Shown here: in pieces, positions 3 to 13,963 of the stretch
Layout of the letters: every line of letters starts with the position of its first letter
How positions within the stretch are numbered: position 1 is the first letter of the stretch
IMG/VR virus record: IMGVR_UViG_2516143027_000005
Location: 1-16,856 of that record
From: a virus
Lineage: Duplodnaviria; Heunggongvirae; Uroviricota; Caudoviricetes
DNA: 16,856 bases
Reading direction: 5' to 3' (one strand)
The notes under the pieces: generated by a model
What the model was told of the DNA's origin: nothing
The model's input: the letters and a program-made list of their open reading frames with translations, nothing else
The model's database searches: none
Program-made: the position numbers and the translations under genes

Positions 3-389
3 CGTGGCAATAACTGTCCCCTTGCTGAAAATTTGTACCAACAAGGGAAAGACAAATCAGCTGATGGAGATACCAGAACGGATATCACCCGCATGGATGA
101 CAAGGAGTTGCACGATTACCTGCACAGTATGAGCAAAAAAGAGCGCCGGGAACTGGCAGCAAGGTTACGCCTGGTGAAACCGAAACGGCGTAAAGACTAC
201 AAACAGCGAATTACAGACCATCAGCGACTGCAGCTCGTGTATGAACTGAAGTCCAGGGGATTTGATGGCAGCGAGAAAGAGGTCGATTTACTGCTTCGCG
301 GCGGCAGTATTCCGTCAGGAGCAGGCCTACGTATCTTCTATCGGAACCAGCGTTTGCAGGAAGATGATAAGTGGCGAAACCTGTATTAA
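3..389 (+). CDS. hypothetical protein, probably 5-prime truncated by the window edge; basic K/R-rich region
   Basis: Frame is open from the first base of the window to a stop at 387-389. The ORF track starts it at a TTG (33-35). No motif recognised. Confidence 0.4.
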
Positions 390-541: not shown

Positions 542-730
542 ATGCAGGACTATTTTTTGGAGTCTTTGAAGCTTCAGCGCATTGATTTTTTTCTTAAGCT
601 TGTAGCGGCTAGTGAGTGTAGTGATGAAGAGAAGGGGCTGGCCCTGCAGTGGGTTTCTGAACTGACAGATGAACTCATGGCAAAAATCAGAACTCACGAA
701 TACAACCGCTCAATGGATGTCATCAGCTGA
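542..730 (+). CDS. small hypothetical protein (62 aa), first gene of the LexA-controlled operon; possibly a Tum antirepressor N-terminal-domain analogue
   Basis: Strong RBS (aggagg at 530-535) before the ATG at 542; sits directly downstream of the LexA box. No recognisable motif. Confidence 0.55.
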   Translation: MQDYFLESLKLQRIDFFLKLVAASECSDEEKGLALQWVSELTDELMAKIRTHEYNRSMDVIS

Positions 731-740
731 GGTGACTTTT

Positions 741-974
741 ATGCGCATTGAAATAATGATCGATAAAGAGCAGAAGATTAGCCAGTCTACACTGGACGCC
801 CTTGAATCCGAGCTTTACCGCAATCTGCGCCCCCTGTATCCCAAAACGGTAATTCGTATCCGCAAAGGTAGCTCTAACGGTGTGGAACTGACCGGACTGC
901 AACTGGACGAAGAAAGAAAACAAGTGATGACAATTATGCAGAAGGTGTGGGAAGACGACAGCTGGCTGCATTAA
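741..974 (+). CDS. dinI: DinI-family protein (77 aa), prophage-encoded
   Basis: Starts MRIEI, contains DALESEL and ends KVWEDDSWLH, matching E. coli DinI (MRIEV...DALAGEL...ETWESADDWF) as I recall it. RBS gaggtg at 729-734. The ORF-track start at 669 overlaps the upstream gene and is less likely. Confidence 0.8.
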   Translation: MRIEIMIDKEQKISQSTLDALESELYRNLRPLYPKTVIRIRKGSSNGVELTGLQLDEERKQVMTIMQKVWEDDSWLH

Positions 975-1108
975 GAAACGTTGCTGGCGTCTGAACTTGT
1001 TTCTGGCGTCAGCAAGGTTGAACAACGAGCTGTGCGAGGCGTTAGCTCTGTAGTGCATGTCTATGCCGCATGAGATCGCATGATCGTTTGAGGATCGTTT
1101 TTGCTAAG

Positions 1109-1135
1109 GCCCGCCAGAACTGGCGGGCTTTTGCG
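1109..1135 (+). terminator. rho-independent terminator of the SOS operon
   Basis: GC-rich stem gcccgcca (1109-1116) / tggcgggc (1121-1128), loop gaac, followed by tttt. Confidence 0.6.
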
Positions 1136-1177
1136 TAGATCATGCAGGTGCATGAAAACCACTACATAAAGCGGGCA

Positions 1178-1196
1178 GGCGTGGCGGGGATACGAG
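1178..1196. other. candidate cos (cohesive end) site
   Basis: ggcgtggcggggatacgag followed by cgcgcgctg. This resembles the P2 left end as I remember it (GGCGAGGCGGGGAAAGCAC then TGCGCGCTG): 14 of 19 positions plus the shared flank. Confidence 0.45.
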
Positions 1197-1212
1197 CGCG
1201 CGCTGTGCGTGG

Positions 1213-1241
1213 TTGTAAAAGGAAATTGTTTTCGGTATAAC
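1213..1241 (+). promoter_or_regulatory. putative sigma70 promoter for the island 1 genes
   Basis: ttgtaa (1213-1218), 17-nt spacer, tataac (1236-1241), about 24 bp upstream of the 1265 ATG. Confidence 0.3.
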
Positions 1242-1264
1242 CACTTCCATTAGAAGGAGAACTT

Positions 1265-1510
1265 ATGAAAATTTTTGCAATAGTCATTACATGTATACTG
1301 GCATTGATTGCAGGATTATGGCTTTACATGGATCCTGGTTTTGATTCTATTGTTGCATTTTTGGCTGCAGTTAGCGCTTTAGCTGGATTACTTATCACTA
1401 CAAAAAATAAATATAATTCTATGAGTCAATCAGTTGGTGATAATTCAATTGGTGTCCAGGCTGGCGGTGATATTAAAATTGATTGTATAAATACAGGTGA
1501 TAAAAAATAA
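1265..1510 (+). CDS. small membrane protein (81 aa) with two predicted transmembrane helices
   Basis: RBS aggaga 7 nt before the ATG. Hydrophobic stretches IFAIVITCILALIAGLWLY and IVAFLAAVSALAGLLITT, then a polar C-terminal tail. AT-rich codons. Confidence 0.6.
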   Translation: MKIFAIVITCILALIAGLWLYMDPGFDSIVAFLAAVSALAGLLITTKNKYNSMSQSVGDNSIGVQAGGDIKIDCINTGDKK

Positions 1511-1519
1511 GGAGGATAT

Positions 1520-2377
1520 ATGTTTAGTGATAAACAAAAGCAACAAATAGGTAATAATTCGTATGCAATTCAAGCTGGAAATAATGTAAATGTTTCAGGG
1601 ATGTCGTTTTCCGAGGTTAGAGAACTATTCAACATTCTCTTCGAAAATCAGTTCCCAAAATTGAAAGATGTTGCTTATGCTGCAGCTCAAGAGAATGCAA
1701 AAGATTTTGAAGAGCGTGTCGTTTCGGATTTAACAAAAAACGTTGATAGATTGATTATTGATAAATTTTGCGATCCGGACGTTCAGGCTACATTGACTGA
1801 GGCATTAAAGTCATCAGCCAGAAAGGGAAAGAAAGCTAATATGGATGTGCTTTCTCAGTTGTTAGTTGAACGAGTCTCCAATAACAATGACGATTTTAGA
1901 GATATAGTCTTAACGGAGGCAGTTACTGTCGTTCCAAAGTTAACACAGCAACAAATATCACTTATAACGATAGTTTTTCTTCTCAAGAATGTTGAGATCA
2001 AAGATCCTGTTAATGGTGTTCGATTGGATTTGTTGGAGCACAATTTTAGAAATTTTGAACCAATGTATACTAATGGGTTTAATTTGTCTCAAGCCCAGAT
2101 ATATCACATTCAATATGCAGGGGCTTGTTCATGGAATACTTTTTTAGGGATAGATGTTGAAGACTATTTCATGGATAAATATCCGACTGATATAAAAGAT
2201 AAGAGTGCGTATATTTCAAATCTTAAGTTAGTTGCCCCTCATGTGTCTGCATTTTTAGAAAATTTTTCAAAGAGCAACTATCAAGGAATTGAACTAACAA
2301 GTGTAGGGCAAGCAATTGCTCTAGCCGTTATTTCAAGATACGTAGGAAGATTGGATTATAATATTTGGTTAAAATAG
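1520..2377 (+). CDS. hypothetical protein (285 aa), unknown function; candidate effector partnered with the upstream membrane protein
   Basis: RBS aggagg before the ATG at 1520, 9 bp after the upstream stop, so an operon arrangement. No Walker A or other motif recognised. Followed by a terminator. Confidence 0.6.
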   Translation: MFSDKQKQQIGNNSYAIQAGNNVNVSGMSFSEVRELFNILFENQFPKLKDVAYAAAQENAKDFEERVVSDLTKNVDRLIIDKFCDPDVQATLTEALKSSARKGKKANMDVLSQLLVERVSNNNDDFRDIVLTEAVTVVPKLTQQQISLITIVFLLKNVEIKDPVNGVRLDLLEHNFRNFEPMYTNGFNLSQAQIYHIQYAGACSWNTFLGIDVEDYFMDKYPTDIKDKSAYISNLKLVAPHVSAFLENFSKSNYQGIELTSVGQAIALAVISRYVGRLDYNIWLK

Positions 2378-2400
2378 GGCAGTATCTGCCCTATTTTATT
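2376..2400. terminator. bidirectional terminator hairpin between convergent genes (285-aa ORF and Q)
   Basis: Stem agggcag (2376-2382) / ctgccct (2386-2392), loop tat, with T-rich tracts on both strands. Confidence 0.55.
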
Positions 2401-3427
2401 ATAATTCATATGGTAGGAAAGAGATTATTTCATCACTCAACCATTCATTAATTTCTTTGATTCGCTTTTGCAGCGGTATCAACTCGTTGCGGACAAAAAC
2501 CTTACTAGCTTTCTCCACATCCCCAAAACCCCCAACATTATTAGGCATAATCCCCATCATTTGCGGCGGCACGCGGTGTGCCGCCATCATGTCATCCCGG
2601 CTCACGTTCTTGATATTCAGAAACTCATCCTTCGCCGCGACCTCTGACAACGGGATGATCTGAAGCCCGTCCTTTTTGCCGTTAGGCGAGTACATAAACA
2701 GGTTGCGGAAGTTGCCAGGGCCTTTGGCGCTTTTCATCGCATTGCGGAGGTTGTTCACATCCTCCTGGTTCTGCGCAGCGTCGGTCATGTACATGATGAA
2801 GCCAGCATGACTGCCGTTAATGTAATACTTTCGACGGAACAGCGTGGCGGACTCATTGAGCAGGGCGGACGGAATGGCAGAAAGATAGCCGGGCAGGCCG
2901 TAGATCTCCTGGTTAATGTCCGGTTCCATCAGATGAAAAATGCTGCCTTTCGTGAACTGATACGGCTGGGTTGTCATACCGTATTGCACAAACCAGTAGG
3001 TATCCAGGTCTAACCCGCGTCGGGTGTATTTTGCCAGAGCAGGCTCAAGGGCGATAACTTCACCGAAGCGGTTCGTGCGTTTCTCCAGGTAGGCGTTACC
3101 AAATACCAGATAGTCCTGCACAAAACGGGTAAATGCCTGCTGGCTGAGCAGCGGGTGGGGGATGTAGGTACTGGTCAGAATGTTGCACTTTACTGCAATC
3201 GGGGAACTGTGATGCACGGCAGCGCGGAAGGTGCGCGCCAGTCCGTCAAAGCTGACGGGTGGTTCATACCAACGGTCCATCTGTACGCATTCCACATAGT
3301 CCAGCAGTTCACGGCGGTCCAGAACCGGAACGGGATCGCCGAAGCTGAATGCTTCGGCTGAAGTCTGGTTTTTATGCTGGATCTGATTCATCGCCGCTGC
3401 GCGGTTTTTCTTACTCTTTCCCATCAA
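2399..3427 (-). CDS. Q: portal protein (P2 gpQ-like)
   Basis: 342-aa ORF directly downstream of the terminase gene on the minus strand with an ATGA start/stop overlap. Size and position match P2 Q. Confidence 0.85.
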   Translation of the reverse strand: MMGKSKKNRAAAMNQIQHKNQTSAEAFSFGDPVPVLDRRELLDYVECVQMDRWYEPPVSFDGLARTFRAAVHHSSPIAVKCNILTSTYIPHPLLSQQAFTRFVQDYLVFGNAYLEKRTNRFGEVIALEPALAKYTRRGLDLDTYWFVQYGMTTQPYQFTKGSIFHLMEPDINQEIYGLPGYLSAIPSALLNESATLFRRKYYINGSHAGFIMYMTDAAQNQEDVNNLRNAMKSAKGPGNFRNLFMYSPNGKKDGLQIIPLSEVAAKDEFLNIKNVSRDDMMAAHRVPPQMMGIMPNNVGGFGDVEKASKVFVRNELIPLQKRIKEINEWLSDEIISFLPYEL

Positions 3428-5190
3428 AAAATCTCCACAATATTGCTGGTATTGGCAGACTCGCCCTGCAGCGGTTCGTTAAACAGTGCGTGCATCGTTG
3501 CCCAGGCCAGATCGGCATGGCTGGCTTCTTCGCTGCGGCTGGCTTCATAGGTCGGGCGGTTGCCGCTGGCGGTGGTGGCGCGACGGATTGCCATGAATGA
3601 CTGCGCAATGTCGGTGTGCCCGGCGTCAAACTCCAGACGGCGGTGGCTGATAATGTCGTAGGCCTTGAGTACCAGGGCGTTTTTAACATTGGGGTTGTAG
3701 ACAAACTCCCGGACGGCAGGAAAGAACGCTTTCACGTTCTCATAAACCCCGTGACCAACGCCGGTTGAGTCGATACCGATATAGGTCACGTTGTACTGTT
3801 CGGTCAGTTTTTTGATGGCGTCAGCCTGGGCGCGGAAGTCCATCCCGCGCCACTGGTGACGCTCAAGAATGCGGAACTTACCACCAGGCACGGCTGGCGG
3901 TGCCACCACCACGCATCCGGCGCTGTCGCCGTTTTGCGTACCTTTTGCCGGGTCATAACCGATCCACACTTCGCGCCAGCCAAACGGGCGCAGAGCCAGT
4001 GCATGAAAGTCGGTCCAGACTTCCCAGCTGTCCACCATGCACGCCTGCAGCTCGCTGAGCGGAAATACGGACGCGAGATCGTCCACAAACTCGCACATCA
4101 GCAGGTTCTGGTATTCGTCCGGGCTGTACTCCATGCGCAACTGGTCAAGGTCGAACAGGTTACAGCCGCCGCGCACCGCATCTTCCACGGTGACTATCTG
4201 GCGGTATTGCCCGTCTGCGCACAGCAGGCCGGGGGCCAGATTGCTGTGGGACAGGTCGATGTCCACCTTGTCGGCCTTGTTGCGCCCACGGTTGAACAGC
4301 GCACCGGACCAGAACGGATAAGCACTGTGTGTCAGGCTGGATGGCGTGGAAAAATAGGTTTGTCGCCATTTTTTGTGAATAGCCATACCGGAAGCCACTT
4401 TGCGCAGCTCCTGGAATTTCGGTATCCAGAAATATTCATCCAGATACAGGTTGCCGTGATAACTCTGGGCCGTGCGGGCATTGGTGCCGAGGAAGTAAAG
4501 CGTGGCCCCGTTAGGAAGCACCATCGGATCGCCTTTCAACTCCACCCCCACTTCTTTGGCGAAGTCGATGATGTACTGCTTAAAGACGTGGGCCTGTGCC
4601 TTGCTGGCGGAAAGGAAAATCTGGTTACGTCCGGTAAGCAGGGCGTCAATCAGGGCTTCACGGGCAAAGTAAAAGGTCGCGCCGATCTGGCGTGACTTCA
4701 GCAGGTTGCGGATGCGGTTGGTTTTTCCGGCTTCCCACCAGTGGCGCTGGTAGTTGAACATGGAGGAATGGAAGATTTCTTCCAGCTTCTCAATCTGTTC
4801 ATCGGTGAAAACGTTCTTTTCCGGCTGACGGCGCGGGCCTTTGTTACGGTTGGCGACGTTAGGGTTTAAGTCGGCTTCGTTGCCGCCATTGTTAAACTTG
4901 CCGATCCGCGCGTGGCGTTCCGACTGGTGCGCCAGCAGGTCAATCTCTTTGAAATCTTTCCCTTCTTTGTGCTCCTTCATAATGAGCTGGCAGTAGCGTG
5001 CGGCGGTGGTGAGCTGCATCTGATCCAGCGGCCCATAGTCACCCCACTTGTCGCGTTTTTTCCAGCTGTGAACGGTTGCAACTTTCTCGCCCAGCATTTC
5101 AGCAATGCGGGCGACGCGGTATCCCTGAAAGTACAGCAGCATGGCCTGCCGACGGGGATCGAGATCTGCGGGTGTCAGTGTGGTGTTCAT
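3424..5190 (-). CDS. P: terminase large (ATPase) subunit (P2 gpP-like)
   Basis: 588-aa ORF divergent from the O gene. Size and position match P2 P. Confidence 0.85.
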   Translation of the reverse strand: MNTTLTPADLDPRRQAMLLYFQGYRVARIAEMLGEKVATVHSWKKRDKWGDYGPLDQMQLTTAARYCQLIMKEHKEGKDFKEIDLLAHQSERHARIGKFNNGGNEADLNPNVANRNKGPRRQPEKNVFTDEQIEKLEEIFHSSMFNYQRHWWEAGKTNRIRNLLKSRQIGATFYFAREALIDALLTGRNQIFLSASKAQAHVFKQYIIDFAKEVGVELKGDPMVLPNGATLYFLGTNARTAQSYHGNLYLDEYFWIPKFQELRKVASGMAIHKKWRQTYFSTPSSLTHSAYPFWSGALFNRGRNKADKVDIDLSHSNLAPGLLCADGQYRQIVTVEDAVRGGCNLFDLDQLRMEYSPDEYQNLLMCEFVDDLASVFPLSELQACMVDSWEVWTDFHALALRPFGWREVWIGYDPAKGTQNGDSAGCVVVAPPAVPGGKFRILERHQWRGMDFRAQADAIKKLTEQYNVTYIGIDSTGVGHGVYENVKAFFPAVREFVYNPNVKNALVLKAYDIISHRRLEFDAGHTDIAQSFMAIRRATTASGNRPTYEASRSEEASHADLAWATMHALFNEPLQGESANTSNIVEIF

Positions 5191-7244: not shown

Positions 7245-7895
7245 ATGAGCCTGAGTCCCGCACGGCAGCATCGCCTGCGCGTTCAGGCTGAACAGGCCGC
7301 CCGCGAAGGCGGCAGCGTTCGCCACGCGTCGGGCTATGACCTGATGCTGCTGCAACTGGCGGAGGACCGCCGCCGTCTCAAGGGCGTTCAGTCCACGGTG
7401 AAAAAAGCGGAAATAAAGGTGGAGCTGCTGCCGAAATATGCCGCCTGGGCGGAGGGCGTCCTGGCTGCCGGAGGCGCTCAACAGGATGACGTGCTGATGT
7501 ACGTGATGCTGTGGCGCATTGATGCCGGAGATTATGCCGGGGCGCTGGAGATCGGGCGTCATGCCCTGCGTCATGGCTGGGTGATGCCGCTGGGTAACCG
7601 CAACGTGCAGACCGTGCTGGCAGAGGAAATGGCAGATGCAGCGCAGAGCGCAATGCTTGCCGCCACCGGCTTTGATGCCGATCTGTTGCTGCAGACGCTG
7701 GAGCTGACAGACGGTCTGGATATGCCGGACCAGTCACGGGCGCGTCTGCATAAAGCGATTGGCGCTGTCCTGAGTGAAAGCAATCCGGCTTCCGCCCTTA
7801 ATCATCTCAACCATGCGTTACAGCTCGATCCCCGCTGTGGCGTGAAAAAAGACAAACAGCAGCTGGAGCGCAGACTGCGCAATGACAGCCGCTGA
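7245..7895 (+). CDS. M: terminase small / endonuclease subunit (P2 gpM-like)
   Basis: 216 aa; segments DDVLMYVMLWRIDAGDYAGALEIGRHAL and LELTDGLDMPD resemble P2 gpM. Immediately follows N. Confidence 0.85.
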   Translation: MSLSPARQHRLRVQAEQAAREGGSVRHASGYDLMLLQLAEDRRRLKGVQSTVKKAEIKVELLPKYAAWAEGVLAAGGAQQDDVLMYVMLWRIDAGDYAGALEIGRHALRHGWVMPLGNRNVQTVLAEEMADAAQSAMLAATGFDADLLLQTLELTDGLDMPDQSRARLHKAIGAVLSESNPASALNHLNHALQLDPRCGVKKDKQQLERRLRNDSR

Positions 7896-10307: not shown

Positions 10308-10701
10308 AGCGGTGCCTTATGTCCGCAATAACCCGGACAAACTGCATCTGTTTGTGGATAACGGTTCGCTGGTTGCCACGGGGGCCAGCTCCATGTCATG
10401 GGAGTACCGTTACACCCTCAACGTGGTGATTGAGGATTTCAGCGGCGACCAGAATCTGCTGATGGCCCCGGTTTTGCTGTGGCTGAGGGATAACCAGCCC
10501 GATGCCATCAATAACCCGGCGTTACGGGAAAAGCTATTCACCTTTGAGGTGGATATTCTGCGCAACGATGTCTGTGATATCAGCCTGAACCTGCAACTGA
10601 CGGAGCGTGTGCTGGTCAGCACTGACGGCAGTGTGTCGAGCGTTGAAGGTATAGCGGAACCTGATGCACCTGAAGAAATGTGGACGGTGAAACGTGGCTG
10701 A
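10270..10701 (+). CDS. R: tail completion protein R (P2 gpR-like)
   Basis: GTG at 10270 with RBS aggag 7 nt upstream, preferred to the TTG at 10249 used by the ORF track. Position after the lysis genes matches P2 R. Confidence 0.7.
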   Translation: MNKPQSLRHALNKAVPYVRNNPDKLHLFVDNGSLVATGASSMSWEYRYTLNVVIEDFSGDQNLLMAPVLLWLRDNQPDAINNPALREKLFTFEVDILRNDVCDISLNLQLTERVLVSTDGSVSSVEGIAEPDAPEEMWTVKRG

Positions 10702-11152
10702 ACTGCAGAAGGTGGACGACTGGCTGAGTGCCTTGCTGGCGAATCTGGAACCAGCCACGAGAAGCCGCATGATGCGCCAGCTGGCGCAGGAACTGCGCCG
10801 GACACAGCAGCAGAATATCAGGATGCAGCGCAACCCTGACGGCAGCAGCTATGAACCGCGACGGGTAACAGCACGCAGTAAAAAGGGGCGCATCAAACGT
10901 CAGATGTTTACAAAGCTGCGCACCACAAAATACCTGAAAACTGCCGCCAGCGCGGATACTGCCAGCGTACAGTTTGAAGGTAAGGTACAGCGCATTGCCC
11001 GCGTTCACCATTACGGCCTACGTGATCGCGTCAGCCGCAAAGGACCTGAGATCCGTTACGCAGAGAGAAAATTGCTTGGATTAAATGGATGTGAAAAATT
11101 AATTCGAAAAATATTCATTATGAATTTATTTTCTGGGGATTGGCTGGCATAA
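10694..11152 (+). CDS. S: tail completion protein S (P2 gpS-like) with an island-derived C-terminus
   Basis: GTG start overlapping the R stop. The conserved-looking core (RIARVHHYGLRDRV) is GC-rich; the last ~20 codons are AT-rich like island 2. Confidence 0.7.
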   Translation: MAELQKVDDWLSALLANLEPATRSRMMRQLAQELRRTQQQNIRMQRNPDGSSYEPRRVTARSKKGRIKRQMFTKLRTTKYLKTAASADTASVQFEGKVQRIARVHHYGLRDRVSRKGPEIRYAERKLLGLNGCEKLIRKIFIMNLFSGDWLA

Positions 11153-11173
11153 AAGCCAGCCTTTATTTTTTTT
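11142..11173 (+). terminator. rho-independent terminator after S
   Basis: Stem ggctggc (11142-11148) / gccagcc (11155-11161), loop ataaaa containing the S stop codon, then a T-run 11162-11173. Confidence 0.6.
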
Positions 11174-12029
11174 ATGTGATGGCCCCTATCTTTTGATTGT
11201 AATAACTATAATCAGCATGTTCTTCTGTATAAAAAATCTCAAATGCAGACAAGATGTTTGCGTAAAAACTATCCTTGGATATAGAGGTTTTTTTATTGAT
11301 GGATGCCAAAAAGTTTGTTATAAATCTTAATGATGCAGAGAAAAGAAAGTGCCCTTTCACCCAATGATTTATAGATGTATTTTCTGGGAATTGAATGTTG
11401 TTTTTTTCTGCTAAACCATTAGTAGTAAACGATTCAGGTAGTCTATTGATATATTCATCTATTTTTTTCTTGCATATATTGTATGAATTTCTTGATTGCA
11501 TAAAACGATCACAGGAATCACCAATTACGGAGCATCCTAATTTATTTAAATGATTGTGAATATCTAGTATTATTAAGTTCTCAATGTTGCTATAGAAGTT
11601 AGAAAGCCAATTTCCTACATCTATTTCCTGCATTTTTTTTGTGCAAAAACGGCCTGTGTTTTTGAGTATGTGTGATATGATTTTTTCATCAATGATTGTG
11701 TTTTCTATTGAATATCCCTTTGTGTAAATAATATTTGTATGCTTTACTATGTTGTCAGAAAAATGGTTTAGATCCGAATCTCTGGCAACTATGGCGTTTA
11801 TTTCTCCTGAGGTTATTTTTTCGATATATGGTTGTAAGGCTTCACATCCACCAACATCTTGAACTTCTACATTAAAACGACCATTTTTTTTAAAAATTAT
11901 TTCCCAAAAAGCAATGTCATCTTCACCTTCAACATAGACCATAATATCAGCATCATAAAATAAACTGATCACATTTTCCGCTTCATTAGACCAAGAAAAG
12001 TTTTCTGCATTAGAATCATTGATTAGCAT
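11172..12029 (-). CDS. ariB: TOPRIM-like (DUF4435-type) putative nuclease, AriB-like
   Basis: 285 aa. N-terminal VYVEGEDD (E34/E36) and ARDSD (D84-x-D86) give the Glu plus DxD spacing typical of TOPRIM/OLD-family nucleases. Start overlaps the upstream ATPase gene by 14 bp. Confidence 0.6.
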   Translation of the reverse strand: MLINDSNAENFSWSNEAENVISLFYDADIMVYVEGEDDIAFWEIIFKKNGRFNVEVQDVGGCEALQPYIEKITSGEINAIVARDSDLNHFSDNIVKHTNIIYTKGYSIENTIIDEKIISHILKNTGRFCTKKMQEIDVGNWLSNFYSNIENLIILDIHNHLNKLGCSVIGDSCDRFMQSRNSYNICKKKIDEYINRLPESFTTNGLAEKNNIQFPENTSINHWVKGHFLFSASLRFITNFLASINKKTSISKDSFYANILSAFEIFYTEEHADYSYYNQKIGAIT

Positions 12030-13272
12030 TGACTAATCTCTCCATATTGAAAATGGCGTTTTTATATTTAGATGCAACTTCAGGAGAATGGGTTGCAGCA
12101 ATAATTTGTGCATTAGGATTTAATTTTTTTATGGCAGGGATAATATTTCTTTGCCATTGAATATGTAAGGAAAGCTCAGGCTCATCAGTTAGGAAAATAT
12201 ATTGTTGCCCTCTTTGTAAGAGGGTCTCAATGAATAAAATTAGCAGTTGTTTTTCACCAGAAGATAAACTTTCTAAAACTATTGGCCCATAGGTGTTATT
12301 TATGACTAACAATCCCGATTGAAAATGAAATTCTTTATCGGTGATAAAATTTCTTAGTATGCTTAAGAATTGTTCTATTGGAGAAAATATTTTTGATGTT
12401 TTCTCTTTTGAAGTTAATGACATTTTGATTATTTTTTGTGTTTTTCTCAATGCTTCGATCGAACGAATATCAAAGCCTCTTTCACTTTTATTCTTTAATT
12501 CCGAAATGGTATTATTAATTGTTTCAACATGAAAGCTGATTTTTTTACGAATGTTTTGATCAATAGCATTTAACTGTGTGTATGCATTAAGGAGGTTTTG
12601 TTTTTCTTCCTCTTTGTTAAAGTTAATGTTGTAAGCAGGATTCTCCATATCTTCCTTGCTATAAAGTATTGATGCCAGAACCTCTTTTTGTAGTTCTAAT
12701 GCGATATCTCTGGCTTTCTGGGATAGTTCAAGTTGATATTTTGTAAGTTCCTGTATTAATTCTGATAACTTATAGTCAACAGGGTTGATAAAACGAGAGC
12801 CATATTTATCTTTAACTTCAAAATCATCACTATTTCTTAATCTGTAAACAGATAAAGAAGAAAGCGAGACTAGTTTTGCTAGTTCTGTTCTTAGTTCTTC
12901 TGTTTCATCATGCACTCTACGTCTATAACTAAGAGATATTCTTCTATCATCAGTGTTAAATAAACGAATTGTGTGTTTTTTAGATGAAAGCTGATATTCT
13001 ATTTTGGAAAATGGAGATGTATCGCTTTCAAGTTTTTTGACTTTGATTGTTTTTGTCTTTTTTTTATCTTTAAGTTTTATTTCGGCACTATTGAAATCAG
13101 CATTGTTAATACTGTCCAAATCAAGGGATAATATTGAGTGCAGAAGGTTCATAAAGGTTGTTTTACCCGTGCCATTTCGGCCTATAATAATGTTTACATC
13201 ATCATTAAATGAGCAGGAACAGTTTAATCGCTGCCAAAAGCCATTAATTGTGACGCTTTGAATTTTATACAT
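12016..13272 (-). CDS. ariA: ABC-type (AAA_15/AAA_21-like) ATPase, AriA-like
   Basis: 418 aa. Walker A GRNGTGKTT at residues 31-39, ABC signature-like LSSGEKQ, Walker B/D-loop IFLTDEPELSLH and H-loop ATHSPE near the C-terminus. RBS aagga before the ATG. Confidence 0.65.
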   Translation of the reverse strand: MYKIQSVTINGFWQRLNCSCSFNDDVNIIIGRNGTGKTTFMNLLHSILSLDLDSINNADFNSAEIKLKDKKKTKTIKVKKLESDTSPFSKIEYQLSSKKHTIRLFNTDDRRISLSYRRRVHDETEELRTELAKLVSLSSLSVYRLRNSDDFEVKDKYGSRFINPVDYKLSELIQELTKYQLELSQKARDIALELQKEVLASILYSKEDMENPAYNINFNKEEEKQNLLNAYTQLNAIDQNIRKKISFHVETINNTISELKNKSERGFDIRSIEALRKTQKIIKMSLTSKEKTSKIFSPIEQFLSILRNFITDKEFHFQSGLLVINNTYGPIVLESLSSGEKQLLILFIETLLQRGQQYIFLTDEPELSLHIQWQRNIIPAIKKLNPNAQIIAATHSPEVASKYKNAIFNMERLVNANQ

Positions 13273-13308: not shown

Positions 13309-13338
13309 TTATAATCATTTGTGTCATCCTCAGTACAA
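13309..13338 (-). promoter_or_regulatory. putative sigma70 promoter for the island 2 operon (minus strand)
   Basis: On the minus strand: ttgtac, 18-nt spacer, ttataa, about 37 nt upstream of the ATG. Overlaps the TGT-N12-ACA dyad. Confidence 0.25.
13320..13337. promoter_or_regulatory. candidate Ogr-type late activator site (TGT-N12-ACA) upstream of V
   Basis: tgtgtcatcctcagtaca, about 50 bp upstream of the V start, where the P2 V-operon late promoter would be expected. Confidence 0.35.
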
Positions 13339-13384
13339 TTATGCCGTTTGGAAGATATTATTTCAAATGTTTAATATATACGGT

Positions 13385-13963
13385 ATGAACGCACAATTAA
13401 CCGAAATCATGCGCCTTATCACCAATCTGATCCGCACAGGTGTAGTTACCGAAGTGGACCGGGAGAACTGGCTTTGCCGGGTGAAAACGGGCGACCTTGA
13501 AACCAACTGGATCAGCTGGCTGACGCTGCGCGCGGGTAATGCCCGCACATGGTGGCGACCATCGGAAGGTGAGCAGGTGGTGGTGCTGAGTCTGGGAGGC
13601 AATCTGGAAACTGCCTTTGCGTTGCCCGCTGTCTATTCGAATCAGTTCGCGCCACCTTCGACGTCGGCGGACGCCTGCGTGACAGAACATCCTGACGGTG
13701 GCTGGTTTGAATACGAACCCGCCACCGGGCGCTGGTATGTCAGGGGCATCAAATCCATGGTCATTGAGGCTGCCGACAACATCACCCTGAAAACCAGTGA
13801 GTTTGTGCTGGAGGCTGACCGCACGCGTATTAACAGCGAAGTAGTGATCAATGGTGGCGTTACCCAGGGCGGCGGTGCAATGAGTTCTAACGGAATTGTG
13901 GTTGATGCACATCAGCATACTGGCGTCCTGAAAGGCGGCGATACAACCGGAGGCCCGGTATGA
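13385..13963 (+). CDS. V: baseplate spike / assembly protein V (P2 gpV-like)
   Basis: 192 aa. ATG at 13385 chosen over the ORF-track start at 13319, whose extra N-terminal codons lie in AT-rich island DNA. Confidence 0.75.
   Translation: MNAQLTEIMRLITNLIRTGVVTEVDRENWLCRVKTGDLETNWISWLTLRAGNARTWWRPSEGEQVVVLSLGGNLETAFALPAVYSNQFAPPSTSADACVTEHPDGGWFEYEPATGRWYVRGIKSMVIEAADNITLKTSEFVLEADRTRINSEVVINGGVTQGGGAMSSNGIVVDAHQHTGVLKGGDTTGGPV

What the first reader, a model, noticed from the sequence alone, without database searches (positions are those of the whole stretch)
1170..1210. Candidate cos site separated from the portal gene by a ~1.1-kb cargo insertion
Seen in sequence: ggcgtggcggggatacgag followed by cgcgcgctg resembles the P2 cohesive end and its flank as I remember them. 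Established knowledge: in P2 the left cos lies within roughly 100 bp of the end of Q. Inference: here the two-gene AT-rich cassette sits between the putative cos and Q, so cargo may be tolerated inside the packaging-proximal interval, or the cos-flanking packaging determinants differ from P2.
Basis: partly seen in the sequence, partly recalled or inferred. Interest (0 to 1): 0.45.

Follow-up and report, generated by a model that had tools for sequence, protein, structure and literature searches.

The report
P2-family cos site beside known cargo hotspot
The sequence is the DNA-packaging (cos) site of a Fels-2-like member of the P2 phage family, and the two foreign genes wedged between it and the portal gene occupy a cargo slot described since 1996, so the arrangement is ordinary for this phage lineage.

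Summary
Observation confirmed. GGCGTGGCGGGGATACGAG lies at 1178-1196, followed by CGCGCGCTG. It matches the 186 cohesive end at 15/19 positions and P2 at 14/19. It is identical to the cos reported for Salmonella phage SEN8 and present in Fels-2. The 55-bp P2/P4/186 cos core aligns without gaps (42-43/55). It sits in a 151-bp conserved block (1053-1203) between gpA/DinI and portal Q.

Dodd & Egan (1996), phiRSY1/phiCTX and Rousset et al. (2022) describe this cargo slot. Fels-2, Cartapus and 500465-1 carry genes there.

In IMG/VR contigs with this exact 19-mer, 77 of 86 have more than 500 bp between cos and Q (59 unrelated AT-rich cargo clusters). The figure is 8 of 93 for P2-type cos.

Conservation collapses 7-8 bp past the cohesive end in all three cos types.

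The cargo is a small membrane protein plus a Vpar_1526-family protein. It is listed as 'hypothetical' in Rousset's tables and its function is unknown. This gene pair is conserved across phyla and both proteins share an IQAG tail motif. That is the only fresh lead.

The parts
33..389 (+). 3' end of the replication gene (gpA homologue). It marks the left edge of the A-Q hotspot.
   Evidence: PHROG phrog_91 'nicking at origin of replication', E 1e-12, matching the C-terminal part of the profile. Relatives have Phage_GPA genes at this position.
542..730 (+). Small conserved phage gene (62 aa, function unknown).
   Evidence: phrog_698, E 4e-38. The same 62-aa gene precedes DinI in Fels-2 and in Klebsiella and E. 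coli relatives.
741..974 (+). DinI-family gene. It is the last conserved gene before cos.
   Evidence: Pfam DinI, E 1e-22. The DinI stop is 203 bp from cos, the minimum seen in relatives (range 205-3211 bp), so the A-side cargo slot is empty here.
1053..1203 (+). Conserved non-coding cos block. It is an island between two variable cargo slots.
   Evidence: Per-column conservation is high from about -125 to +25 relative to the 19-mer. It is random outside that range in 115-116 distinct IMG/VR contigs.
1056..1085 (+). Cluster of TGCAT/GCATG motifs about 95-122 bp upstream of the cleavage site. Inferred accessory terminase-binding region.
   Evidence: GCAT motifs sit at the same offsets in P2, P4, 186 and the window in an ungapped alignment. 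The region is conserved in all three cos-type sets. The binding role is inference only.
1103..1134 (+). 15-nt-arm inverted repeat followed by TTTTG. It may be a terminator of the DinI operon and/or a structural element of cos.
   Evidence: Inverted repeat I1, 87% complementary. An inverted repeat (CGCCAG..CTGGCG) lies at the same offset in 186 and in the consensus of the P2-type and 186-type contig sets, and a different one (CGCGCC..GGCGCG) lies there in P4. P2 itself has none.
1150..1204 (+). 55-bp cos core (-28 to +26), equivalent to the P2/P4 core of Ziermann & Calendar.
   Evidence: Ungapped identity is 42/55 to P2, 42/55 to P4 and 43/55 to 186. The 55-bp core concept is cited in PMC3931495, PMC5694545 and PMC9594776.
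1178..1196 (+). Predicted 19-nt cohesive-end sequence (cosN equivalent). Nicks are expected 5' of 1178 on the top strand and after 1196 on the bottom strand.
   Evidence: Aligns with the annotated cosL of P2 and cos of 186. Identical to the cos reported for phage SEN8 (PMC5427200). The surrounding 66 bp are 100% identical in Fels-2.
1204..2398 (+). AT-rich cargo cassette in the Q-side slot of the cos-proximal hotspot.
   Evidence: Homology to 120 related contigs stops at 1202-1230, mostly at 1202-1207. It resumes at 2358-2481, in all but one contig at 2390-2481. GC is 34%. Found intact in 6 of 5426 complete E. coli genomes and in Salmonella prophages.
1213..1241 (+). Candidate sigma-70 promoter of the cassette (TTGTAA-17-TATAAC). 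An AAGGAG ribosome-binding site lies at 1254-1259.
   Evidence: Read directly from the sequence. The consensus scan did not call it, because the second hexamer lacks its final T. Weak evidence, inference only.
1265..1510 (+). 81-aa protein with two hydrophobic helices and a C-terminal ..IGVQAGGDIKI.. tail.
   Evidence: Translation. phrog_27656. Equivalent small ORFs abut 17-18 of 20 distant Vpar_1526 genes.
1520..2377 (+). 285-aa LPO_1073/Vpar_1526-family protein. It is all-alpha, of unknown function, and has an N-terminal ..AIQAGNNVNV.. tail.
   Evidence: NCBIfam NF045477, 246 bits against a cutoff of 45. Homologues carry Pfam PF28206. The AlphaFold2 model has pLDDT 83 and pTM 0.79. No Foldseek match in PDB or BFVD. 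No PADLOC hit.
2370..2398 (.). Hairpin terminator between the converging cassette and the Q-P operon. It takes the place of tQ/tW.
   Evidence: Terminator-like site with a 13-bp stem. P2 and 186 have annotated terminators tQ and tW in the same interval.
2399..3424 (-). Portal gene (gpQ homologue). Its last 1-27 codons are AT-rich and vary together with the cargo.
   Evidence: Pfam Phage_portal, E 2e-17. Nucleotide homology to nearly all relatives resumes only at 2390-2481.
3424..5190 (-). Terminase large (ATPase) subunit, gpP homologue.
   Evidence: Terminase_6N, Terminase_6C and Terminase_5, E 4e-65 to 3e-27.
7245..7895 (+). Terminase small subunit, gpM homologue. It is the presumed reader of cos.
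   Evidence: Pfam Phage_term_smal, E 2e-40.

Best explanation
Window 1178-1196 is the cohesive-end sequence of a Fels-2-like P2-family prophage. The full packaging signal is the conserved 151-bp block at 1053-1203. In outline, the phage's own terminase (gpM at 7245-7895 and gpP at 3424-5190) recognises sequences that lie almost entirely on the gpA side of the cut, plus only 7 bp (CGCGCGC) on the portal side. It then makes nicks 19 nt apart to leave 5' overhangs. Nothing beyond +26 is needed for packaging, so the DNA between cos and the 3' end of Q is free to vary. It serves as the Q-side slot of the known cos-proximal cargo hotspot (gpA to gpQ). In this prophage the slot holds a self-contained module. 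The module has a candidate promoter, an 81-aa membrane protein, a 285-aa Vpar_1526-family protein and a hairpin terminator, and it brings its own version of the last Q codons. It was most likely acquired by recombination between the cos core and the Q gene. What is shown: the sequence identity and alignment, the position, the conservation pattern, the diversity of cargo in relatives, and intact terminase genes. What is inferred: the actual cleavage positions, which sequences the terminase binds, the route of exchange, and the function of the cargo (probably a lysogen-expressed accessory or anti-phage module).
For: The 19-mer and its flanks align without gaps to the annotated cos of P2, P4 and 186. 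The exact 19-mer is the cos reported for SEN8. The surrounding 66 bp are 100% identical in Fels-2 and 98% identical to the annotated 'putative cos site' at the start of the Cartapus record. The site occurs once in the window against zero expected by chance. It lies between the gpA/DinI genes and Q-P, as in every P2-like genome examined. Conservation runs from -125 to +25 and then falls to random at +26/27, in 115-116 distinct contigs with this 19-mer and equally in the P2-type and 186-type sets. P2 and P4 share no similarity past +26 although they use the same terminase (the P2/P4 relationship is stated in PMC9122126). The cos-to-Q distance is 154-3532 bp (median 1670) in Fels-2-type contigs, and 77 of 86 exceed 500 bp. 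Those 77 cargo intervals form 59 unrelated clusters of 31-44% GC. Fels-2 (1.7-kb gene), Cartapus (DUF4145) and 500465-1 (TIR protein) all carry cargo in this slot. Cartapus yields encapsidated DNA (PMC9928086). Prior literature describes both the slot and the hotspot. The cassette proteins appear in Rousset's Table S5A. The terminase, portal and head genes are intact.
Against: No physical DNA ends have been mapped for this prophage. For SEN8 and Cartapus the cos site was assigned by annotation or similarity, not by end sequencing. Only 16.9 kb of the prophage is visible, so its overall integrity is unknown. The closest E. coli relative carrying the same cassette has a portal pseudogene, and some Salmonella copies sit in deleted prophages. 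The IMG/VR counts come from the first 120 contigs per scan and include related isolates. The 19-mer differs from P2 and 186 at 4-5 of its last 6 positions. Cross-compatibility with the P2 terminase is therefore unknown.
Confidence: 0.9

Rival explanations
1. The determinants flanking cos differ from P2. In this lineage, terminase recognition would have shifted, so that cos no longer needs to be near Q.
For: The right half of the 19-mer (ATACGAG against AAAGCAC/T) and several left-flank positions differ from P2 and 186. Use of the Q-side slot depends strongly on lineage: 77/86 for Fels-2-type contigs against 8/93 for P2-type.
Against: The extent of the conserved signal is the same in all three cos types and ends at +26/27. 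P2-type (8/93) and 186-type (40/105) contigs also carry insertions at the same place. Retrons occupy this position in a 186-like prophage (Dodd & Egan 1996). P2 and P4 already diverge completely after +26, so proximity to Q was never a requirement.
Confidence: 0.07
2. The site is an inactive relic. The prophage is defective, and the cos-like sequence is conserved only through recent common descent.
For: The nearest E. coli relative with the cassette has a portal gene with an internal stop. Some Salmonella loci with the cassette have lost the late genes next to the portal (L131 and L132). Only part of the prophage is in the window.
Against: The 151-bp block stays at least about 90% conserved while the DNA on both sides is unrelated among more than 100 contigs. 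That pattern indicates selection, not just shared descent. In this window the portal, both terminase subunits, scaffold, capsid, head-completion, lysis and tail genes are all intact ORFs with full-length family matches.
Confidence: 0.1
3. The cassette is a mobile element that inserted by transposition or site-specific integration next to cos. On this view it did not arrive as a swap by homologous recombination.
For: Both junctions are sharp, the DNA is AT-rich and foreign in composition, and Vpar_1526 modules occur next to IS elements and integrases in Vibrio.
Against: The cassette has no transposase, integrase, terminal inverted repeats or target-site duplication. The only direct repeat near the left junction is a 14-nt, 86% two-copy match of the sort that arises by chance. 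The left junction coincides with the junction of 59 unrelated cargos. The right junction is variable and lies inside Q, which fits recombination within flanking homology.
Confidence: 0.08

Closest known systems
cos sites of P2, P4 and 186 (19-nt 5' cohesive ends within a 55-bp core; Ziermann & Calendar 1990)
   Same: Same position in the genome. The first 13 nt of the overhang are identical to 186. The core matches at 42-43/55. The left-flank motifs GCAT(T/G)AAAACC and AAAGCGGGCA and the right-flank GCGCGC are shared, as are the upstream TGCAT cluster and (with 186 and P4, not P2) the hairpin.
   Different: Positions 14-19 of the overhang read TACGAG instead of AAGCAC/T. Several left-flank bases also differ. 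Physical ends have not been determined here.
Fels-2 / SEN8 / Cartapus / RE-2010 / SopEPhi / 500465-1 group (Felsduovirus, Elveevirus, Wadgaonvirus)
   Same: The 19-mer is identical to the reported SEN8 cos, and the 66-bp cos region is 98-100% identical in Fels-2, Cartapus, RE-2010, SopEPhi and 500465-1. The gene order is the same: gpA, small gene, DinI, cos, cargo, Q, P. Fels-2, Cartapus and 500465-1 also carry cargo between cos and Q.
   Different: The cargo differs: a 565-aa hypothetical protein in Fels-2, DUF4145 in Cartapus, a TIR protein in 500465-1, and a membrane protein plus Vpar_1526 here.
cos-proximal gpA-gpQ hotspot of P2-like phages (Rousset et al. 2022), and retrons Ec67/Ec86 replacing DNA between cos and terminator tW of a 186-like prophage (Dodd & Egan 1996)
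   Same: Variable, AT-rich, self-contained cassettes sit directly against cos between otherwise syntenic genes. The cassette's proteins are listed in Rousset's Table S5A.
   Different: In P2 itself the cargo (old, tin) lies on the gpA side of cos. Here the gpA side is empty and the Q side is filled. An anti-phage function has not been shown for this cassette.
LPO_1073/Vpar_1526 protein family (NCBIfam NF045477, Pfam PF28206)
   Same: Full-length match at 246 bits, with 40-44% identity to homologues across many phyla.
   Different: The family has no assigned function. The conserved small membrane partner and the shared IQAG tail motif are not in any family description or paper I could find.

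Membership tests
P2-family cos site | G+C-rich 19-nt cohesive-end sequence of the form GGCG(A/T)GGCGGGGA...... | tested here: met
   1178-1196 matches 186 at 15/19 and P2/P4 at 14/19, with the first 13 nt identical to 186. One hit in the window against 0 expected.
P2-family cos site | Conserved 55-bp core: about 28 bp on the right-end (gpA) side, the 19-mer, and about 8 bp on the left-end (Q) side | tested here: met
   Ungapped identity of 42/55 (P2), 42/55 (P4) and 43/55 (186), compared with 47/55 between P2 and 186.
P2-family cos site | Located between the replication gene A region and the portal/terminase operon Q-P of a P2-like genome | tested here: met
   gpA 3' end at 33-389, DinI at 741-974, Q at 2399-3424 and P at 3424-5190.
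P2-family cos site | Cognate terminase (gpP ATPase subunit and gpM small subunit) encoded by the same element | tested here: met
   Terminase_6N/6C/5 and Phage_term_smal, both full length.
P2-family cos site | Virion DNA ends with 19-nt 5' overhangs at this position | not testable with these tools
   This needs virion DNA. SEN8 and Cartapus provide only annotation-level assignments.
cos-proximal (gpA-gpQ) cargo hotspot of P2-like phages | Gene content varies between conserved flanking genes in otherwise syntenic relatives | tested here: met
   The 77 cargo intervals from relatives form 59 clusters, and none matches the window's cassette. The junctions fall at 1202-1207 (a few up to 1230) and 2358-2481, nearly all 2390-2481.
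cos-proximal (gpA-gpQ) cargo hotspot of P2-like phages | Directly adjacent to cos | tested here: met
   Variability begins 7-8 bp after the 19-mer.
cos-proximal (gpA-gpQ) cargo hotspot of P2-like phages | The cargo provides anti-phage defence or another lysogenic-conversion function | tested here: inconclusive
   No PADLOC hit, no informative Pfam hit and no structural match. Only the context suggests defence.
LPO_1073/Vpar_1526 family | Score above the curated NCBIfam cutoff over the full-length model | tested here: met
   NF045477 at 246 bits against a cutoff of 45, covering model positions 1-257 of 257.

The most novel reading that the evidence does not exclude
The cargo may be an undescribed two-component accessory, probably anti-phage, system. 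It would consist of an ~80-aa two-helix membrane anchor and a soluble all-alpha Vpar_1526 protein. The two may dock through a tail motif they share: GIQAG(R/G)D(V/A)N at the C-terminus of the anchor and AIQAG(R/G)D(V/I) at the N-terminus of Vpar_1526. The pairing is conserved from Enterobacteria to Planctomycetes, Chlorobi and Acidobacteria. A second, more modest reading is also open. All cargos in all three cos lineages begin exactly at +26/27, and the choice of side differs by lineage. This could mean that cassette exchange starts at the cleaved cohesive end.
Probability: 0.35. Interest if true: 0.45.

Novelty: already known. Interest (0 to 1): 0.15.

Why it matters
For the finding as stated, it matters little. 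It correctly locates cos in an unannotated prophage, but the arrangement it flags as odd is the textbook cargo slot of P2-like phages, and the norm for the Fels-2 lineage. Two by-products are modestly useful. First, the packaging signal is delimited to a 151-bp island whose Q-side edge is only 7-8 bp from the cut. That defines where synthetic cargo can be placed in P2-family vectors and cosmids. Second, there is a lineage contrast in which side of cos carries cargo. The one lead with real potential is the conserved pair of small membrane protein and Vpar_1526, which is a candidate for testing as a new defence module.

Tried and rejected
I looked for phage records whose ends coincide with this 19-mer, as a stand-in for mapped termini. 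None of the listed records starts at the 19-mer. Cartapus starts at the 55-bp core and labels it 'putative'.

Ziermann & Calendar 1990 is not in the library, so the 55-bp core is cited second-hand. Its exact functional limits come from my own alignments.

Function of the 285-aa protein:
- Pfam gave only a sub-threshold T4 Cef hit (16.6 bits against a cutoff of 27).
- PADLOC gave nothing.
- PHROGs gave only unknown-function families.
- A confident AlphaFold2 model found nothing in PDB or BFVD (best E 0.46, TM about 0.15).
- Literature searches for LPO_1073 and PF28206 found nothing. The search for Vpar_1526 found only a Veillonella membrane-proteome table.

An Rfam scan of the window found no RNA family.

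The cassette occurs on two 55-kb 'plasmid' records, which hinted at a phage-plasmid. I rejected that idea because those records carry chromosomal genes (ybjJ, rcdA) next to the prophage integrase.

I dismissed the 14-nt direct repeat at 1026/1199 as a chance two-copy match.

Full report
**1. What is in the sequence**

The window is the gpA-to-tail part of a P2-family (Peduoviridae) prophage. Reading left to right:
- The 3' end of the replication gene (33-389, phrog_91).
- A conserved 62-aa gene (542-730).
- A DinI-family gene (741-974).
- A non-coding stretch.
- Two AT-rich + strand genes (1265-1510 and 1520-2377).
- A hairpin terminator (2370-2398).
- On the minus strand, the portal gene Q (2399-3424) and the terminase ATPase gene P (3424-5190).
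- After that come scaffold O, capsid N, small terminase M (7245-7895), head completion L, lysis genes, and tail genes R, S, V, W and J.

The closest phage records are about 96% identical over 79% of the window. They are Klebsiella and E. coli P2-like prophages, including CP019275 and vB_EcoM-813R9.

**2. The observation**

GGCGTGGCGGGGATACGAG lies at 1178-1196 and is followed by CGCGCGCTG.

I built the circular junctions of P2, P4 and 186 from their GenBank ends. All four sequences line up without gaps:
- The 19-mer matches 186 at 15/19 and P2/P4 at 14/19.
- The 55-bp core (-28 to +26) matches at 43/55 (186) and 42/55 (P2 and P4). For comparison, P2 against 186 gives 47/55.
- Further upstream, a cluster of TGCAT motifs (about -122 to -95) lies at the same offsets in all four. 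An inverted repeat (about -75 to -44 in the window) has a counterpart in 186 and P4, but not in P2.

A degenerate 18-nt junction pattern occurs once in the window and never in 200 shuffles. There is no second candidate site.

The exact 19-mer is the cos reported for Salmonella phage SEN8 (PMC5427200). The 66 bp around it are 100% identical in Fels-2. They are 98% identical in RE-2010, SopEPhi, 500465-1 and Cartapus, whose record starts with this sequence annotated as 'putative cos site'.

One correction: the P2 cos-to-Q gap is 167 bp and the 186 gap is 176 bp, not about 100 bp.

**3. How far the packaging signal extends**

I scanned IMG/VR for the exact 19-mer, oriented the 120 contigs returned, and computed per-column conservation.
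- Conservation is high from about -125 to +25. It drops to random at +26/27, which is window position 1204.
- The same collapse at +26/27 appears in contigs carrying the P2-type and the 186-type 19-mers.
- P2 and P4 are packaged by the same terminase (PMC9122126). They are unrelated beyond +26 (14/33 matches).

So nothing on the portal side beyond 7-8 bp is part of the conserved signal in any lineage. Which bases the terminase actually binds, and where it cuts, remain inferences.

**4. The cargo slot is known and, in this lineage, usual**

Homology between the window and all 120 contigs stops at 1202-1230 (mostly 1202-1207). It resumes at 2358-2481, in all but one contig at 2390-2481, which is inside the last codons of Q. 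None of these contigs has the window's cassette.

Distance from the end of the 19-mer to the Q stop codon, by cos type (the window's distance is 1202 bp):

| cos type | compact (≤250 bp) | 251-500 bp | >500 bp | median |
|---|---|---|---|---|
| Fels-2-type (the window's) | 9 of 86 | 0 | 77 of 86 | 1670 bp |
| P2-type | 85 of 93 | 0 | 8 of 93 | 170 bp |
| 186-type | 65 of 105 | 14 of 105 | 26 of 105 | 178 bp |

The 77 Fels-2-type cargo intervals form 59 unrelated clusters. All are AT-rich (31-44% GC).

On the other side of cos, the distance from the DinI stop to cos ranges from 205 to 3211 bp. The window has the minimum (203 bp). The cos block is therefore an island between two slots. Here the A-side slot is empty and the Q-side slot is filled.

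Named phages show the same arrangement:
- Fels-2 has a 1.7-kb gene between cos and Q.
- Cartapus has a DUF4145 gene there and yields encapsidated DNA (PMC9928086).
- 500465-1 has a TIR protein there.

The literature already covers this:
- The position between cosL and the Q homologue is called a hotspot, with reference to Dodd & Egan and to Nakayama 1999 (PMC5694545; PMC7826664).
- Rousset et al. 2022 systematically described the cos-proximal gpA-gpQ hotspot, with 1,650 gene arrangements.
- Close relatives of the two cassette proteins (WP_000687980 and WP_000490525, from the 96.6%-identical copy of the cassette) are listed as 'hypothetical' in their Table S5A.

These counts come from the first 120 contigs of each capped scan and include related isolates. 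They are indicative only.

**5. The cargo itself**

The 285-aa protein is a full-length member of the LPO_1073/Vpar_1526 family (NF045477, 246 bits; PF28206 in homologues).
- Its AlphaFold2 model is confident (pLDDT 83, pTM 0.79) and all-alpha apart from a disordered N-terminal 24 residues.
- It has no structural relative in PDB or BFVD.
- It has no PADLOC hit.

The 81-aa protein has two hydrophobic helices and a polar C-terminal tail.

The pairing of the two genes is conserved:
- A 40%-identical pair sits in the same cos-portal slot of a Klebsiella variicola prophage. Other pairs occur in a Vibrio mobile region and in a Burkholderia chromosome.
- In a scan of species-representative genomes, 17 of 20 full-length Vpar_1526 genes have an abutting upstream ORF, mostly about 80 aa. 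They come from Proteobacteria, Planctomycetes, Chlorobi, Acidobacteria, Desulfobacterota and Bacteroidota. In most of them the ORF has the same ..PGFDS.. helices, and in all 17 a C-terminal GIQAG(R/G)D(V/A)N tail.
- One further locus (L401) shows the same tail where the tblastn match begins inside the small ORF, which makes 18.
- Vpar_1526 itself begins with ..AIQAG(R/G)D(V/I)..GLSVxEV.

A shared tail motif in both partners suggests they dock to each other. That is inference only. Function is unknown. The context suggests a lysogen-expressed accessory or defence module.

**6. Verdict**

The cos call is right, with about 0.9 confidence short of end mapping. The arrangement is real but already known, and it is typical for this lineage. 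The cos determinants have the same extent as in P2. The finding therefore scores low. The only fresh lead is the conserved pair of membrane anchor and Vpar_1526.

Noticed in passing
window 11172-13272 (-): A second cargo island sits between tail genes S (10694-11152) and V (13319-13963), which is the P2 orf30 position. It holds an AriA-like AAA_15/AAA_21 ATPase (418 aa) and an AriB-like DUF4435 protein (285 aa), i.e. a PARIS-type defence pair (PADLOC AriA E 2e-38, AriB E 2e-21). A relative carrying the same cos-side cassette has a DUF6216 gene at this position instead.
   Followed up: partly
window 1265-2377; loci L134, L138, L140, L385-L404: The small membrane protein and the Vpar_1526 protein share an IQAG(R/G)(D/N)(V/I) tail motif (C-terminal in one, N-terminal in the other). 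The two-gene arrangement is conserved in 17-18 of 20 loci from many phyla. I found no description of this pairing.
   Followed up: partly
window 1056-1134; P2, P4 and 186 junctions (L001-L004, L127-L128): Beyond the 55-bp core, a TGCAT motif cluster (about -122 to -95) keeps the same offset from the cut in P2, P4, 186 and this phage. An inverted repeat (about -75 to -44 in the window) is matched in 186 and P4 but not in P2. These may be accessory terminase or host-factor sites.
   Followed up: partly
IMG/VR loci L007-L382: Which side of cos carries cargo depends on lineage. The Q-side slot is filled in about 90% of Fels-2-type cos contigs, about 38% of 186-type and about 9% of P2-type. A second variable slot lies between DinI and the cos block, 205-3211 bp.
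   Followed up: partly
NZ_CP148585.1 and NZ_CP148400.1 (L384): Two 55-kb E. coli records labelled as plasmids contain a whole P2-like prophage with this cassette, plus the chromosomal genes ybjJ and rcdA. They look like assembly fragments or excised chromosomal segments rather than phage-plasmids.
   Followed up: partly
NZ_CM168005.1 (L383); L131, L132: The E. coli genome with the most similar copy of the cassette (99.4%) has a portal pseudogene with an internal stop. Some Salmonella copies sit in prophages that have lost the genes next to the portal. The cassette therefore often persists in decaying prophages.
   Followed up: no
window 2399-2481 (-): The last 1-27 codons of the portal gene are AT-rich and vary together with the neighbouring cargo. 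The portal C-terminal tail is evidently swapped along with the cassette and tolerates very different sequences.
   Followed up: no
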